Shown here one piece after another: positions 1 to 58,293 of a DNA stretch of 64,000 nucleotides. The translations under genes and the position numbers were made by a program. Source of the stretch: Octopus sinensis (lineage: Eukaryota); the NCBI RefSeq assembly GCF_006345805.1, contig NC_043013.1, positions 51,336,001 through 51,400,000 of the forward strand, given 5' to 3'. A model generated the notes under the pieces. That model was not told the DNA's origin. It worked only from the letters and a program-made list of their open reading frames with translations, and ran no database searches. Each line of letters opens with the position of its first letter. Position 1 is the first letter of the stretch.

Positions 1-75
1 TATCGACCCCGAAAGGATGGAATACCGCTAAGCATTTCGGCCGGCGTGCTAACGTCTCTGCCAGCTCGCCGCCTT
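1..75 (-). mobile_element. tRNA-derived SINE family A, head with internal deletion
   Basis: Reverse complement reads AAGGCGGCGAGCTGGCAGAGACGTTAGCACGCCGG, the head shared with copies at 6.3, 14.2, 15.6, 44 and 51.5 kb. Confidence 0.8.
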
Positions 76-291
76 GTTTTAACGATTCTGCCAGCTTGCA
101 GCCTTTCATAAAATGCTTAACGGTATTTCGTCCGTCTTTACGTTCTCAGTTGAAAATTGCCTTTCATCTCTTCACGGTTGATAAATTAAGTACCAGTAGT
201 GTATTGGTGTTAATCGTGGTTGTGGTTGGGGTAGGGGTAGGGCGATACAGACGACTTCCACACCGCCCAAATTTTCAGGCCTTCTGCTTAT

Positions 292-5037: not shown

Positions 5038-6278
5038 TACTTGTGACGATATAAAGTGGCCGAGAAATAAGTATAAATGCACAGAAGTGCTTCGAAACCC
5101 GCTGTCGATGTGTAGGAGCGGCCACTGATATTCAAGAAAGCCGAATATTGTAAGCCTGAGATAGTGTGTAGCATTCTGTCAATCAACAGAGAGGAAATGA
5201 AATTGTAAAAGGAGAATAAAATATATTTGTTCTGAGACGTCGTGATGCTGAGTAACAGAGGCGGCGAGAAAGCGAATTTGAAATTGTAATTTTGTAAAGA
5301 GAATTACTATTTACGTTGGCGATGAGGGAATGGCCTGTTAGAAATGCGTCTGCGATCGACGTAATCATCGATCAAGCATAGCGGAGAATAAGTGGCATCA
5401 AGGATATATATATATACACACACACACATATATATATATATATTATACACACATACATACAAACATACATACATACTATATATATATATATACATACACA
5501 TACAAACATATATACACACACATATATATATACATATATATGTGTGTATATATATATGTATAAATATATATATATATATACACACATACGTATATATGTA
5601 TGTATATATACATACATATATATATATATATAAATGCATATATGCATATTGGAGTCGTTGAGATAAACTTGTCTCGTGAATTTACAAATGACTCCAGGCA
5701 GACCTCTACATGTAAGACCCAAATGACTGTGTTTGAACCAAACGGGTTCGTTTAGAATAATTTAATGGTTCGGAATGTCATCAATAAAAACAAACAATGA
5801 CCAAAAAAAAAAACAAGAACAAAAATGTTACGTTGGTAACATTCAAATCTGTACTGTGATAGAGGCAAAACTTTAATATGATTGTTAATGAATATTACAC
5901 TGTTAAATAGGCGAACTGTTATATAGGTTAAAAGGGGTTATATTCTGATGTGAGAAGTTAAAGTTATACTGGCGTGGGCATGGATGCGTGGTTAATACAT
6001 CCAGTTCACAACCACGTGGTTTGGGGTTCTGTTCCAATGAGCGAATCTTTGGTCAACTATTTCCTACGCCAGCAATATTAAAATCATTAGAAAGAATACA
6101 GTTCACAGTATTCGATTTAACTAAATAGGAGCCTTTCACTGCACACGTGGACTGTCACCAGTCACTGAGATGTGTTCCATAATTCATACGTGTGTGTGTG
6201 CGTGTCTGTGCGCGTGTTAATGAAGATAATACTGTTAAACAGACATATTGTTATGTATGTGAAAAGCGATTATATTCT

Positions 6279-42433: not shown

Positions 42434-42743
42434 ATGCGTGTGTGTGTGTTTGTGTGTGTGTGTGTATGCGTGTGTGTGTGCATACATTCATATATGTACA
42501 TATTATATATATATACATGTACGTATACACACACGTAGACACGCACGCACACAGAAACATACGCATACATACATACACATATATATGTATACACACCCAT
42601 GTACATACACATATATGCATACACACACGCACGCATACACGCATATATATATATGTATACACACAAACGCTCGCACACACACATACATGTATGCGTGCGT
42701 CTATGTATGTATCTATTTAACTAACCATATGTATATATATATA

Positions 42744-42822
<79 letters not shown>

Positions 42823-43113
42823 TATATATAATATATATATATATATAGATATATAATATATATATATATATAATATATATATATATATAATCAATATAGG
42901 GTGGCAGAAAAAAATTTTGTAGAATTCTTTTTGCCACCAGCGGCCTAGTGGGAAAGAATTAAATAGTCATAGACCATTTTTAAGTTCAACATCAACAATC
43001 AAGGAACGGCCATGATAGGCCATTCACCCACTAGAAATAACAGCCAAAGCTTCAACCGCAAATAAAGATTAATTCCGTAAACAGGAGAAAATTTAAAAAA
43101 CATTTACCCTGTA

Positions 43114-43220
43114 ATTTCTTGTACGATGCACCGTTTCATCTGCTGTTTAATGGTAAACTAACCTGATTAAATTAAATCAAGCCAATCTTCCATAGGCCCT
43201 CAGATTCTTCAGCAAGAAAT
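43114..43220 (-). ncRNA. Type I hammerhead ribozyme (inverted copy)
   Basis: Reverse complement of 43650-43756. Confidence 0.75.
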
Positions 43221-43649
43221 AGCCAAGTCGGAACAGATATTTTCACGAGGCATTTCAAACCCTGCCAAGGTAGGGTAAATGTTTTTTAAATTTTCTCCTG
43301 TTTACGGAATTAATCTTTATTTGCGGTTGAAGCTTTGGCTGTTATTTCTAGTGGGTGAATGGCCTATCATGGCCGTTCCTTGATTGTTGATGTTGAACTT
43401 AAAAATGGTCTATGACTATTTAATTTTTTCCCACTAGGCCGCTGGTGGCAAAAAGAATTCTACAAAATTTTTCTGCCACCCTATATTGATTAATTATGAA
43501 TTCTGGTTAATTCCGTAATGGAATAGACGGCTTATATTTATTTGCTGCCGATAAATTTGGCGCGAGTGCGACGATTTGAAAATTTTAGGTCAGATATTAC
43601 CTTGGCAGGGTTTGAAATGCCTCGTGAAAATATCTGTTCCGACTTGGCT

Positions 43650-43756
43650 ATTTCTTGCTGAAGAATCTGAGGGCCTATGGAAGATTGGCTTGATTTAATT
43701 TAATCAGGTTAGTTTACCATTAAACAGCAGATGAAACGGTGCATCGTACAAGAAAT
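43650..43756 (+). ncRNA. Type I hammerhead ribozyme with extended loop II
   Basis: atttcttg CTGAAGA atctg..cagat GAAA cgg tgca tcg TA caagaaat; predicted cleavage after 43748. Confidence 0.8.
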
Positions 43757-43944
43757 TACAGGGTAAATGTTTTTTAAATTTTCTCCTGTTTACGGAATTA
43801 ATCTTTATTGCGGTTGAAGCTTTGGCTGTTATTTCTAGTGGGTGAATGGCCTATCATGGCCGTTCCTTGATTGTTGATATATATATATATTATATATTAT
43901 ATATATATATATATGTGTGTGTGTGTGCATATTGGTTGATTGGT

Positions 43945-44360
43945 GGAGCGAGGTGGCAGAAACGTTAGCGCGCCAGACGAAAGGCTTAGCGGTATTTCGT
44001 CTGCCACTACGCTCTGAGTTCAAATTCCGTGGAGGTGTCGACATTGCCTTTCATCCTTTCGGTGTCGAAATATTAAGTGCCAGCTGCGTACTGGGGTCGA
44101 TCTAATCGACTAGTCACTTCCTCCAAAATTTCGGGCCTTGTGCCTAGAGTAGAAAGGTATCTTTTTTACGGCAAAGGCGACGACTTGGTAGAAAGGTTAG
44201 CACGCCGGACAAAATGCTTAGCGGTACTTGCGTCTGTCCTTACGTTCTGATTTCAAACTCCGCCGAGGTCAACTTTGCCTTTCATGCCTTTTGGGGTCGA
44301 TAAGATAAATACAAGATGAGTACTGATGTGGACGTCATCGACCTGCCCCTTTTCCCCCTG
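43945..44360 (+). mobile_element. Two adjacent SINE family A copies
   Basis: Heads at ~43945 and ~44173, each with GTTAGC.CGCC.GAC.AAA.GCTTAGCGGTA and a TTCAAA B-box-like motif. Confidence 0.8.
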
Positions 44361-45794: not shown

Positions 45795-46380
45795 TTCAAC
45801 AATATTAAGGAATGGCCCTGATAGGCTATTCGACTCACCAGAAAGAGCAGCCAAACTCAAACTGCTAAATAGTAGTAATTCAGAAATCAAAGGAAAATCA
45901 AAAACATTTACCCTAATCATCCTTGGACAATGCATTGTTTCGACGTACTTTTTGGCAAACCAGCCTAATTAAATTAAATTTAATTTAATCAAGTCAATCT
46001 ACCACTGGCTCGTCTCATCGGCAAGGAATAAATATTCCTCCTGGCTTCCTTGCCGATGAGACGAGCCAGTGGTAGATTGACCTGATTAAATTAAATTAAA
46101 TTTAATTAGGCTGGTTTGCCAAAAAGTACGTCGAAACAATGCATTGTCCAAGGATGATTAGGGTAAATGTTTTTGATTTTCCTTTGATTTCTGAATTACT
46201 ACTATTTAGCAGTTTGAGTTTGGCTGCTCTTTCTGGTGAGTCGAATAGCCTATCAGGGCCATTCCTTAATATTGTTGAAATTATATATATATAGTCTGTT
46301 CCTATTTTCTCTTTCTGACTGGACCGCTAGTGGCGAAAAAAAATTCTATTGAATGTTTTGCTACCCTTGTATTGATTAAT
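45795..46380 (+). mobile_element. HHR fold-back element, copy 2
   Basis: ~235 bp arms 45795-46028 and 46046-46280; homologous to the 43 kb and 57 kb copies. Confidence 0.9.
46047..46154 (+). ncRNA. Type I hammerhead ribozyme (mirror copy 45920-46027 on minus strand)
   Basis: tccttg CCGATGA gacg..cgtc GAAA caa tgca ttg TC caagga; GUC site, predicted cleavage after 46148. Confidence 0.8.
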
Positions 46381-57198: not shown

Positions 57199-57499
57199 GC
57201 ATGCATGTATGTATGTATGTATGTATGTATGTATGTACGTATGTATTTATATATATATATATATATATATACATATATACAACAACAAATTGAGGAACGG
57301 CCATAATAGGCCGTTCGACCCACTAGAAAAAGCAGCCAGGGCTTCAACCGCAAATAGTAGTAATTCCGTAAACAGAGGAAAATTAAAAAACATTTACCCT
57401 GTTCATCTTTAGACAATGCATTGTTTCAGCGTTTTTTAATGGTAAACCAGCCTGATTAAATTAAATCAAGTCAATCTTCCAAAGGCCAACGCAAGGCTC

Positions 57500-57600
57500 C
57501 TTTACTGATGAATTGCGTTGGCCTTTGGAAGATTGACTTGATTTAATTTAATCAGGCGGGTTTACCATTAAAAAACGCTGAAACAATGCATTGTCTAAAG
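57500..57600 (+). ncRNA. Type I hammerhead ribozyme
   Basis: cttta CTGATGA attgcgtt..aacgct GAAA caa tgca ttg TC taaag. Confidence 0.75.
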
Positions 57601-57977
57601 ATGAACAGGGTAAATGTTTTTTAATTTTCCTCTGTTTACGGAATTACTACTATTTGCGGTTGAAGCCCTGGCTGCTTTTTCTAGTCGGTCGAACGGCCTA
57701 TTATGGCCGTTCCTCAATTTGTTGTTGAATTTATTAATAGTCTCTGACTATTTCCTTTTTCTCACTAGACCGCTGGTGGCAAAATAATTTCTACTGAATT
57801 TTTTGCTACCCTAATATTGATTAATTGATAATTTTCTGTTTAATTCCGAAATGGAATCGGCAGCTTATATTTGCTGCCGATAAATTGGCGCGAGTACGAT
57901 GATTTTGAAAATTTTAGGTCAGATATTGCCGAGGCATTAAGGTAGCTGCCTCGTGTAATTTCTCTCCCTCCTGGCTC

Positions 57978-58078
57978 CTTTACTGATGAATTCCGTTGGC
58001 CTTTGGAAGATTGACTTGATTTAATTTAATCAGGCTGGTTTACCATTAAAAAACGCTGAAACAATGCATTGTCTAAAG
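57978..58078 (+). ncRNA. Type I hammerhead ribozyme (second tandem copy)
   Basis: Same as 57500-57600 with two substitutions. Confidence 0.7.
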
Positions 58079-58293
58079 ATGAACAGGGCAGTTGAAAGGG
58101 CAGTTGAAGCCGAAACCACGAATAAATGGAATTTCAAAGGGAAAGAAAATAAAAAACATTTTTGTAGTTACCATCAATTTTGCTGCTGAATCTAACTGCG
58201 CTTGCGCGGTGGATTCGAAAATTATGATGTATAAGTATGTAGCACGTATGTTTTCGGTGCTATTTGCTGCATAAATATGCATTAATTTTAGCG

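What the first reader, a model, noticed from the sequence alone, without database searches (positions are those of the whole stretch)
42888..43878. Circularly permuted copy of the same family suggests a circular or multimeric template
The forward part starts at a different point of the monomer than the 57 kb copy (43273, just downstream of the HHR) and runs about 1.24 monomers (606 bp, period 488); the 57 kb forward part is also about 1.24 monomers (595 bp, period 478). The 385 bp inverted arm begins at yet another position (equivalent to 43598) and reads through an intact HHR. Different start points on one repeating unit are expected from reverse transcription of a circle or concatemer with a strand switch.
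Basis: partly seen in the sequence, partly recalled or inferred. Interest (0 to 1): 0.75.

Follow-up and report, generated by a model that had tools for sequence, protein, structure and literature searches.

The report
Ribozyme repeat inserted the Penelope way
This stretch is one insertion of a 488-base non-coding repeat with a predicted self-cleaving hammerhead ribozyme. It was likely copied into a (TA)n microsatellite by the enzymes of Penelope-like retrotransposons, whose known head-to-head, partly tandem way of inserting explains its "permuted" look without needing a circular template.

Summary
Window 42888-43878 is a 385-bp inverted arm joined head to head to 1.24 forward units of a 488-nt monomer (M), at 99-100% identity.

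It is not a one-off. I examined 39 sites of this family and 30 loci of an older sister family in the same genome.
- The outer ends are not permuted. They always lie at one of two fixed sites, about M120 or about M226, and usually abut (TA)n.
- All 41 two-armed insertions with both ends readable carry one end of each kind.
- Only the inner junction varies.

This is the published insertion pattern of Penelope-like elements (PLEs): partial tandem, an inverted 5'-truncated copy, a "tail" at one end, and an AT-rich target. Here it is used by a non-coding, hammerhead-bearing unit, that is, an animal "retrozyme".

The hammerhead is supported by covariation but missed by Rfam.

In this copy neither arm can be a copy of the other, which argues for two separate cDNAs rather than a strand switch on one cDNA. 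One linear RNA of about 1.45 units suffices, though a circular template is not excluded.

This scan has noted Penelope-type insertions in other genomes. This is a new member of a known kind.

The parts
42730..42887 (.). (TA)n microsatellite, left flank of the insertion (the target)
   Evidence: Read directly. The 40 nt next to the element have a TA-step fraction of 0.92.
42888..43272 (-). Inverted arm. It is the reverse complement of M327-488 followed by M1-221, with its sense 3' end pointing outward (left).
42888..42990 (-). The "tail": the extra segment M121-223, present at this outer end only. This is an S226-type end.
   Evidence: Across the family the outer ends fall at two fixed sites about 106 nt apart.
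43114..43220 (-). Complete predicted hammerhead copy inside the inverted arm
   Evidence: Exact reverse complement of 43650-43756.
43272..43272 (.). Head-to-head junction. Reverse-complement M327 meets M1, and one base is shared by both arms.
43272..43759 (+). One full 488-nt monomer (M). GC is 36.7%, and no frame runs more than 53 codons without a stop.
43444..43480 (+). Conserved hairpin inside the tail region (M173-209). It may be the recognition element for reverse transcription; this is inferred.
   Evidence: Fold. In one search, 90.4% of cells in this helix are paired, and one pair toggles between G-C, G-U and A-U across subfamilies. Covariation over the whole tested structure is not significant.
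43650..43756 (+). Predicted type I hammerhead ribozyme. Helix I is 43650-43657 with 43749-43756. The CUGAAGA core is 43658-43664. Helix II is 43665-43732 and carries an insertion of about 60 nt. GAAA is 43733-43736. Helix III is 43736-43747. Cleavage is predicted between 43748 and 43749.
   Evidence: Not detected by Rfam.
43760..43878 (+). Partial second unit, M1-120. This is an S120-type outer end without the tail.
43879..43914 (.). (TA)n microsatellite, right flank of the insertion
   Evidence: TA-step fraction is 0.85.
45796..46380 (.). Older copy B of a related family (73-75% to M). It has an inverted arm with its outer end at about M119, a fold-back centre near 46040 at the 5' edge of the hammerhead, and a forward arm ending at about M223 next to TA repeats.
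57273..58086 (.). Copy C of the sister family (80% to M). It has an inverted arm with its outer end at C128, a junction near 57495, and a forward arm cut short at C480 with no (TA)n flank.

Best explanation
The 991-bp block at 42888-43878 is one insertion of a young, high-copy, non-coding 488-nt repeat carrying a predicted type I hammerhead ribozyme. It was most likely made by target-primed reverse transcription of the Penelope-like-element (PLE) kind, in which both cut strands of a (TA)n target would prime cDNA at two fixed internal sites of a multi-unit RNA.

**Shown directly**
- The arm layout of this copy.
- The fixed outer ends at about M120 and about M226.
- The one-of-each rule for the two ends of an insertion.
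- The (TA)n flanks.
- The variable inner junctions with 0-8 nt overlaps.
- Covariation in the hammerhead.

**Inferred**
- A PLE reverse transcriptase/GIY-YIG endonuclease supplied in trans cuts both strands of (TA)n.
- One 3' end starts cDNA at M226 and the other at M120. The 106 nt between them form the one-sided "tail".
- Each cDNA runs a variable distance toward the RNA 5' end. That 5' end is often near the ribozyme cut at M477/478.
- The two cDNA ends are then joined head to head through microhomology.

For this copy, one linear RNA of about 1.45 units would be enough: 5' end near M1, with start sites at M120 and M226 of its second unit. Whether multi-unit templates are read-through transcripts of arrays or rolling-circle products of circular RNA is left open.
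For: **Architecture in the A family.** I examined 39 sites. These are the 38 distinct sites among the matches listed (1098 candidates, 40 of them scored), plus the window copy.
- All 26 two-armed insertions are oriented minus then plus, so sense 3' ends point outward.
- 25 of those 26 pair one M112-126 end with one M215-232 end. The 26th has an assembly gap at one end.
- Two further sites have tiny second arms, seen in the flanks (L052, L064), and they fit the same rule. That gives 27 of 27.
- In the sister C family, 13 of 13 distinct two-armed insertions with both ends in TA flanks pair C113-133 with C215-225.
- Window copy B pairs M119 with M223.

**Target.**
- 30 of 39 left flanks and 31 of 39 right flanks have at least 60% TA steps, against 5.6% of 1513 background 40-mers.

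**Inner junctions.**
- They differ between otherwise near-identical copies. 19 of the 26 have overlaps of 0-12 nt.

**Two separate cDNAs.**
- In 6 of 25 insertions, this copy included, neither arm is a sub-range of the other.

**Hammerhead.**
- Of 104 distinct sequences of the region, 62 of 64 A-type carry CTGAAGA and 33 of 39 C-type carry CTGATGA.
- RNAalifold found helices I and III unaided, and 4 of its predicted pairs show compensatory changes.
- On my 10-pair structure, 99.0% of cells are paired, against 23-44% when the partners are slid. 5 of the 10 pairs change on both sides.

**Enzymes present in the genome.**
- Intact ORFs of 775-883 aa with RT plus a C-terminal GIY-YIG domain exist.
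- The one such locus I read sits in (TA)n.

**Literature.**
- PLE insertions consist of a partial tandem, an adjacent inverted 5'-truncated copy, and a tail often at one end only. A (TA)n insertion bias is reported for the Naiad clade (PMC8557442, passages).
- A purified PLE protein cleaves and extends both strands, starts reverse transcription at two adjacent internal RNA sites with the tail lying between them, and prefers AT-rich DNA (PMC11167929, main text).
- Animal retrozymes have been proposed to be non-autonomous PLE derivatives (PMC7229834 passages; bioRxiv 10.64898/2026.07.22.740005, abstract and passages).
Against: - **No autonomous partner found.** None sharing sequence with M turned up. 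43 PLE loci gave only short hits of 24-39 nt. The compact-hammerhead relatives have no ORF of 200 aa or more and no PLE match beside them; the only match is 2 kb away in L175.
- **Rfam is negative.** It finds no hammerhead here at E up to 10. None was listed in the 150 rows shown for the compact relatives (14 further rows were not shown). The ribozyme call therefore rests on core motifs and covariation. Catalysis is untested, and the A family has an unusual A-U pair closing helix II.
- **The tail is long.** It is 106 nt here, against the 30-40 bp in print.
- **The inner-end cluster is offset.** It lies 4-26 nt downstream of the predicted cut, not at it. The windows used for the test were chosen after seeing the data.
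- **No usable RNA evidence.** All runs found are Logan contigs, and laying them gave 57-95-nt pieces.
- **The variant test cannot separate circle from concatemer.** It found 208 private, 15 subset and 6 array-fixed rare substitutions.
- **A proposed stem is unsupported.** A stem pairing the two start sites is only 70.7% paired, and the whole tested structure is no better than its shuffles.
- **Sampling bias.** The loci examined are the best-scoring ones, which favours copies with full units.
Confidence: 0.75

Rival explanations
1. The first reader's reading, which is also the published retrozyme model. The ribozyme-cut monomer RNA is circularised, and reverse transcriptase runs round the circle to give multimeric cDNA. 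A strand switch then produces the inverted arm, so copies start at arbitrary points of the circle.
For: - A hammerhead sits in every unit.
- Arrays reach up to 8 units and were homogeneous at birth: 208 private rare substitutions against 15 subset and 6 array-fixed.
- Some growth mechanism is needed to make long arrays from short donors.
- The circle model is in print (PMC7761336, Figure 2 legend; PMC7229834, passages).
Against: - The outer ends are fixed rather than arbitrary: 65 of 66.
- 18 of 66 inner ends cluster just downstream of the predicted cut, where 3.5 would be expected. In several cases this follows one or more full laps. That points to linear templates with a 5' end.
- In this copy neither arm can be copied from the other.
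- No RNA data were obtainable to show circles.
Confidence: 0.15
2. A single cDNA with self-priming (copy-back). One strand of the target primes cDNA, the cDNA's 3' end folds back and copies itself, and this gives the inverted arm. This idea was proposed for PLEs in 2013.
For: - Near-symmetric junctions are over-represented: 7 of 26 where 1.9 would be expected.
- Examples are L031 (M309|M309) and L038 (M86|M86).
- The model is geometrically possible for 19 of 25 insertions.
- The model is in print (PMC3846280, Discussion passage).
Against: - It is impossible for 6 of 25 insertions, including the window copy, because each arm holds sequence the other lacks.
- It does not by itself explain why the second arm always ends at the other fixed site.
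- Purified PLE protein extends both strands (PMC11167929).
Confidence: 0.06
3. A DNA-level origin. This could be a fold-back or inverted-repeat DNA transposon, or a satellite array with local inversions produced by replication or recombination errors.
For: Long inverted repeats and tandem units are present.
Against: - The arms are unequal, and the inner junction differs at every site while the sequences are 97-100% alike.
- There are no fixed terminal inverted repeats. The two outer ends differ by the 106-nt tail.
- The inner ends look like 5' truncation, the target is a specific (TA)n, and a covarying ribozyme is conserved on one strand.
Confidence: 0.02
4. An assembly artefact, with a palindromic chimera produced from long reads.
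For: Craig et al. note that such structures cause assembly problems (PMC8557442). My read check of the junction did not complete.
Against: The same layout occurs at 27 A-family and 13 C-family sites on many contigs, each with its own junction. This includes old, diverged copies (B and C) whose arms have mutated independently.
Confidence: 0.02

Closest known systems
Insertion unit of endonuclease-bearing Penelope-like elements: pseudo-LTR partial tandem, adjacent inverted 5'-truncated copy, one-sided "tail" (PMC8557442, PMC3846280, PMC11167929)
   Same: - Head-to-head arms with 3' ends pointing outward.
- Partial tandem.
- An extra segment at one outer end only.
- Two fixed reverse-transcription start sites bounding that segment.
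- AT-rich or (TA)n target.
- A hammerhead in the repeated part.
- Microhomology or palindromes at the inverted junction.
   Different: - There is no ORF, and the whole unit is 488 nt.
- It forms arrays of up to 8 units.
- The tail is 106 nt rather than 30-40 bp.
- The one-tail-per-insertion rule is strict here (41 of 41), whereas the papers say "often" or "optionally".
- No sequence-related autonomous element was found.
Animal non-LTR retrozymes (Cervera and de la Pena 2020, PMC7229834; Li et al. 2026 preprint)
   Same: - Short, AT-rich, non-coding tandem units, each with a type I hammerhead.
- High copy number.
- Co-occurrence with PLEs.
- Proposed mobilisation by PLE enzymes.
   Different: - The unit (488 nt) is above the quoted 150-450 bp range.
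- Helix II carries an insertion of about 60 nt.
- Helix III is a 12-nt near-palindrome, as in PLE-type motifs.
- The texts I searched do not apply the words inverted, tail or microsatellite to retrozyme insertions. Their model is reverse transcription of a circle.
- Circular RNA was not tested here.
5' inversion of human L1 insertions by twin priming
   Same: - Two target 3' ends prime on one RNA.
- The resulting arms lie head to head.
- The internal junction shows microhomology.
   Different: In L1 the second priming site is arbitrary and inversion is a minority outcome. Here both start sites are fixed, and two-armed insertions are the majority: 27 of 39 sampled sites, plus L066, whose one end is an assembly gap.
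Non-autonomous Chlamys PLE derivatives such as MRC1 in Chlamydomonas (PMC8557442, passage)
   Same: Non-coding elements that form pseudo-LTRs and multi-copy head-to-tail insertions using PLE enzymes in trans.
   Different: They belong to a different PLE clade and kingdom. They show 3'-end similarity to autonomous families, which was not found here. Most Chlamys lack a hammerhead.

Membership tests
Animal non-LTR retrozyme | A type I hammerhead motif in each unit: conserved core, with helices I, II and III | tested here: met
   - Core CUGANGA, GAAA and a GUH cut site are present. 62 of 64 A-type and 33 of 39 C-type distinct sequences carry the full 5' core.
- 99.0% of cells are paired, and 5 of 10 pairs show compensatory change.
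- RNAalifold finds helices I and III unaided.
- Rfam does not detect it.
Animal non-LTR retrozyme | Short, non-coding, low-GC tandem units (quoted as about 150-450 bp and under 45% GC) | tested here: met
   The unit is 488 nt, slightly above the quoted range. GC is 36.7%, and the longest stop-free stretch is 53 codons. Arrays reach up to 8 units.
Animal non-LTR retrozyme | Expressed, self-cleaved and present as circular RNA | not testable with these tools
   Only Logan contigs were on offer, and the runs labelled RNA are guesses. Laying them gave 57-95-nt pieces with no end information.
PLE-type insertion (mobilised by PLE enzymes) | Partial tandem plus an adjacent inverted 5'-truncated copy, arranged head to head | tested here: met
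   All 26 two-armed A-family sites are minus then plus. The window copy has 0.79 of a unit inverted and 1.24 units forward.
PLE-type insertion (mobilised by PLE enzymes) | A tail at one end, bounded by two fixed internal start sites | tested here: met
   Outer ends lie at M112-126 (34) or M215-232 (31), out of 66. All 41 two-armed insertions are mixed-ended. The tail is 106 nt, longer than the 30-40 bp in print.
PLE-type insertion (mobilised by PLE enzymes) | AT-rich or microsatellite target | tested here: met
   30 of 39 left flanks and 31 of 39 right flanks have at least 60% TA steps, against a background of 5.6%.
PLE-type insertion (mobilised by PLE enzymes) | An autonomous PLE in the same genome that shares the cis sequences | tested here: inconclusive
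   Intact RT plus GIY-YIG ORFs exist, and the one locus I read sits in (TA)n. None of the 43 PLE loci sampled resembles M. Only 150 of 5029 candidates were scored.
Autonomous Penelope-like element | Encodes reverse transcriptase and GIY-YIG endonuclease | tested here: not met
   The unit has no ORF over 53 codons. ORFs of 250 aa or more occur in 12 of the 68 flanking loci. Of the 6 I scanned, 2 were LINE apurinic endonuclease or RT and 4 had no family hit; none was a PLE.
Fold-back / inverted-repeat DNA transposon | Fixed terminal inverted repeats of equal extent | tested here: not met
   Arm lengths and junctions differ at every site, and the two ends differ by the tail.

The most novel reading that the evidence does not exclude
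Every integration uses both internal reverse-transcription start sites exactly once, one on each strand of the target (41 of 41). This would mean a single coordinated, asymmetric enzyme-RNA complex primes both DNA strands on one folded RNA domain of a linear multi-unit transcript. If so, ribozyme-bearing "retrozymes" spread by Penelope-type two-strand priming and not by reverse transcription of RNA circles.
Probability: 0.35. Interest if true: 0.6.

Novelty: new member of a known kind. Interest (0 to 1): 0.45.

Why it matters
Two strands of literature meet here. One describes tandem hammerhead repeats in animals ("retrozymes") and proposes that they spread through circular RNA. The other describes the odd tandem, inverted and tailed insertions of Penelope-like elements, and has recently shown two-strand priming at two internal start sites in vitro.

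This family is young: about 1.6 private substitutions per 488-nt unit. It is also abundant: 1098 candidate sites. Its insertions are clean enough to read the mechanism directly from genomic copies. They show fixed start sites, a strict one-tail-per-insertion rule, a (TA)n target, and inner ends that pile up near the predicted ribozyme cut.

That gives structural support, beyond co-occurrence and phylogeny, for the view that retrozymes are passengers of Penelope-like enzymes. It also offers a natural substrate for testing how those enzymes coordinate the two strands.

For genome annotation, it explains a class of palindromic and tandem repeats in (TA)n tracts that repeat finders and Rfam miss.

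Tried and rejected
1. **Rfam.** There were no matches at gathering score over the whole window. There was no hammerhead at E up to 10 in 42800-44000. PLE loci gave only a tRNA. For the compact-hammerhead relatives, no hammerhead appeared among the 150 rows shown, which were mostly microsatellite look-alikes of miRNA models; 14 further rows were not shown. Rfam models do not see this variant.
2. **Circle versus concatemer by variants.** Array-fixed variants that are rare elsewhere would point to monomer-to-multimer amplification. Over 31 arrays (131.3 units) I found only 6 such substitutions, against 208 private and 15 subset. The family is too young and uniform for this test. One array (L062) shows a local two-unit alternation and L042 shows one mirror-symmetric site; these are anecdotal.
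3. **Autonomous partner.**
   - A GIY-YIG search of the genome gave 5029 candidates, of which 150 were scored.
   - 13 loci were extended to 10 kb.
   - There was no DNA similarity to M beyond 24-39-nt hits and no hammerhead of this type.
   - A pattern search for hammerheads with a short helix II gave 41 hits against 1 in the control.
   - A few of these are diverged relatives of the retrozyme, but they have no ORF of 200 aa or more next to them.
4. **A stem pairing the two start sites (M110-122 with M212-225).** It was predicted by the fold (z = -2.3). It is not supported on the cross-family alignment: 70.7% paired, and the whole tested structure is no better than its shuffles.
5. **Reads.**
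   - All 20 runs found are kept as Logan contigs.
   - Laid on the element they give 57-95-nt pieces of a collapsed repeat. These tell nothing about the 43272 junction, RNA ends or circles.
   - A second lay on 43212-43332 did not complete.
6. **Earlier scan notes for this genome.** There were none.
7. **Rejected readings.** A tail-end fragment of a full-length PLE is ruled out by the units wrapping round with a 488-nt period and no ORF. A DNA fold-back transposon and an assembly artefact are dealt with under the rival explanations.
Full report
**1. The observation**

The block is as described.
- One search finds two perfect inverted repeats: 43061-43272 with 43598-43809 (212 nt), and 42910-43110 with 43272-43472 (201 nt).
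- One search also finds two perfect direct repeats with periods of 488 and 487.
- I took 43272-43759 as monomer M (488 nt) and compared it with the window by BLAST. 42888-43110 is the reverse complement of M1-221. 43111-43272 is the reverse complement of M327-488. 43760-43878 is M1-120.
- Read left to right, the block runs M221 down to M1, M488 down to M327, then M1 up to M488, then M1 up to M120. One base is shared at the junction.
- Both flanks are (TA)n.
- Two more copies in the window have the same inverted-plus-forward plan: 45796-46380 (73-75% to M) and 57273-58086 (80%).

**2. The ribozyme**

Rfam reports nothing at gathering score, and no hammerhead at E up to 10.
- Its parts are: helix I 43650-43657 with 43749-43756; core CUGAAGA; helix II closed by AUCUG/CAGAU around an insertion of about 60 nt; GAAA; a 4-bp helix III with a UGCA loop; and a GUA cut site after 43748.
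- I collected 104 distinct sequences of this region from the fetched loci and aligned 50 of them, spanning the subfamilies.
- RNAalifold predicted helices I and III unaided. 4 of its predicted pairs show changes on both sides.
- On a 10-pair hammerhead structure, 99.0% of cells pair, against 23-44% when partners are slid. 5 of the 10 pairs change on both sides. These include the helix II closing pair, which is A-U in 36 sequences and G-C in 9.
- Helix III is a 12-nt palindrome in the older families. By recall, this is typical of the dimer-forming motifs of Penelope-like elements.
- Catalysis is untested.

**3. The family in its genome**

The window lies in a 2.72-Gb assembly.
- M finds 213 matches, from 1098 first-look candidates of which 40 were scored, at 90-100% identity. 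Many lie in tandem.
- I fetched 10 kb around each of the 38 other distinct sites in that list. I mapped each arm on the circular unit, extending BLAST hits base by base.
- The result is very regular.
  - All 26 two-armed insertions are minus then plus, so sense 3' ends point outward.
  - Of 66 outer ends, 34 lie at M112-126 and 31 at M215-232. The one exception abuts a run of N.
  - The commonest end sequences are ...CCTTGATTGTTGAT followed by (AT)n (25 times), and ...TATTGATTAATTAT followed by (AT)n (12 times).
  - 25 of the 26 two-armed insertions pair one end of each type. The 26th is the one with the gap.
  - Two apparently single-armed sites (L052, L064) have second arms of 12-15 nt, visible in the flanks, and they fit the rule. 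That gives 27 of 27.
- The sister family gives the same picture. Its monomer is 57607-58086, with 1955 candidates. All 13 of its distinct two-armed insertions pair C113-133 with C215-225.
- Copy B in the window pairs M119 with M223.
- In total, 41 of 41 insertions are mixed-ended.
- Single-armed copies end at either site: 7 at M120 and 5 at M226 in the A family.
- Flanks are (TA)n. 30 of 39 left and 31 of 39 right flanks have at least 60% TA steps, against 5.6% of 1513 background 40-mers.

**4. What varies**

Only the inner ends vary.
- Junction overlaps and fillers range from a 22-nt overlap to 72 nt of filler. 19 of the 26 lie between a 12-nt overlap and zero.
- The inner ends are not uniform.
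  - 18 of 66 fall in M478-M15, where 3.5 would be expected. This is 4-26 nt downstream of the predicted cut at M477/478.
  - 8 of 66 fall in M368-395, the 5' edge of the hammerhead, where 3.8 would be expected.
  - I chose these windows after seeing the data.
- 12 of the 18 are in two-armed insertions, where microhomology to (TA)n cannot be the cause.
- Several of these arms end there only after one or more full laps, for example arms of 606-616 nt.
- I read this as run-off at the 5' ends of linear RNAs that still carried uncut internal ribozyme sites. This is an inference.

**5. This copy in particular**

- The right arm (M1..488, 1..120) starts at the tail-less site and ends in the preferred inner zone.
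- The left arm (M327..488, 1..221) starts at the tailed site and stops after 385 nt.
- Each arm holds sequence the other lacks, so neither can have been copied from the other. The same is true of 6 of 25 insertions.
- Two RNA-templated cDNAs are therefore needed.
- One linear RNA of about 709-714 nt (1.45 units) would do: 5' end near M1, with the two start sites in its second unit.
- The similar "1.24 units" of the 57-kb forward arm is a coincidence. That arm ends at C480 with no TA flank and has lost its normal end.

**6. Comparison with what is known**

- Craig et al. 2021 (PMC8557442, passages read) describe PLE insertions as 5'-truncated partial tandems. They often have an inverted 5'-truncated copy at the 5' end, and a 30-40-bp tail often at one end only. 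They report a (TA)n insertion bias for the Naiad clade.
- Arkhipova et al. [quoted passage not shown] They show that pLTR sequences suffice in trans, and they propose self-priming.
- Frangieh et al. 2024 (PMC11167929, main text read) show several things for a purified PLE protein. It cleaves and extends both strands and prefers AT-rich DNA. It starts reverse transcription at two adjacent internal RNA sites, with the tail lying between them. It does not need ribozyme cleavage in vitro. They propose multi-copy transcripts as the template.
- Every one of these features is met here by a unit without an ORF: no stop-free stretch over 53 codons, and 36.7% GC. That matches the animal non-LTR retrozymes of Cervera and de la Pena 2020 (PMC7229834, passages), which those authors and a 2026 preprint (abstract and passages) link to PLEs.
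- In those two retrozyme texts, "inverted", "tail" and "microsatellite" are not used of retrozyme insertions. Their model, and that of the 2020 review (PMC7761336, Figure 2 legend), is reverse transcription of a circle.
- My searches for a paper that maps retrozyme insertion ends found none. Subscription journals are not covered, and preprint supplements were closed.

**7. The enzymes**

- The genome holds thousands of GIY-YIG matches: 5029 candidates, of which 150 were scored.
- The one such locus I read lies in (TA)n.
- None of the 43 loci sampled resembles M.
- A pattern search found 41 hammerheads with a short helix II, against 1 in the control. A few belong to diverged relatives of the retrozyme, but none has an ORF of 200 aa or more beside it.
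- The partner remains unidentified.

**8. What stays open**

- The variant test cannot tell a circle from a concatemer.
- RNA and read evidence could not be obtained (and the unanswered calls).
- The strict one-of-each rule calls for a coupling between the two priming events. I suggest one dimeric complex on one RNA domain, but the stem I proposed between the two sites is not supported.
- The loci sampled are the best-scoring ones.

**9. Verdict**

This is a correct catch of a real and regular structure. The structure is ordinary for Penelope-type insertion. The family is a new, unusually clean member of the retrozyme / non-autonomous PLE kind. The scan has noted Penelope-type insertions in other genomes.

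Noticed in passing
window 43949-44290: Two copies of a roughly 230-nt unit lie 231-232 nt apart at 82-83% identity, just right of the insertion (families D8 and D9). It looks like a short interspersed repeat in tandem.
   Followed up: no
L131:2243-6165 (G000:C6): An intact Penelope-like element with a 781-aa ORF (RT plus C-terminal GIY-YIG) lies between (TA)n tracts. It has an AC-rich 5' region containing a 138-bp internal tandem. Near-identical copies occur at L132, L135 and L136. A 479-aa ORF with no Pfam match lies just upstream in L132 and L136.
   Followed up: partly
L062:3314-7235 (G000:C15): Within an 8-unit array, alternate units share variants: four rare variants in one pair of alternate units and one in the other. 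This is a local two-unit higher-order repeat, which could reflect either unequal crossing-over or a dimeric template.
   Followed up: partly
L172-L175 (G000:C8, C3, C14, C22): These are diverged relatives of the retrozyme (72-82% over parts of the unit). Their hammerhead has a short helix II (11-23 nt) in place of the roughly 60-nt insertion. This suggests the insertion is a later gain.
   Followed up: partly
window 58087-58250: Copy C's forward arm stops at the unit boundary and is followed by unrelated, non-TA sequence. This is probably a later deletion or insertion that removed its normal outer end.
   Followed up: partly
L037:4039-4650 and 5238-5849 (G000:C4): Two copies of equal length (612 bp, M118..M486), both in the same orientation, lie 587 bp apart. 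(TA)n flanks the outer side of each. This is either two hits in one microsatellite or a local duplication.
   Followed up: no
L176:4934-5208 (G000:C23): Two minimal hammerhead motifs lie 237 nt apart on one strand. Their helix III is nearly the same as that of the sister family, but the retrozyme monomers gave no BLAST match to this locus. It is possibly a pseudo-LTR of an unidentified PLE.
   Followed up: partly
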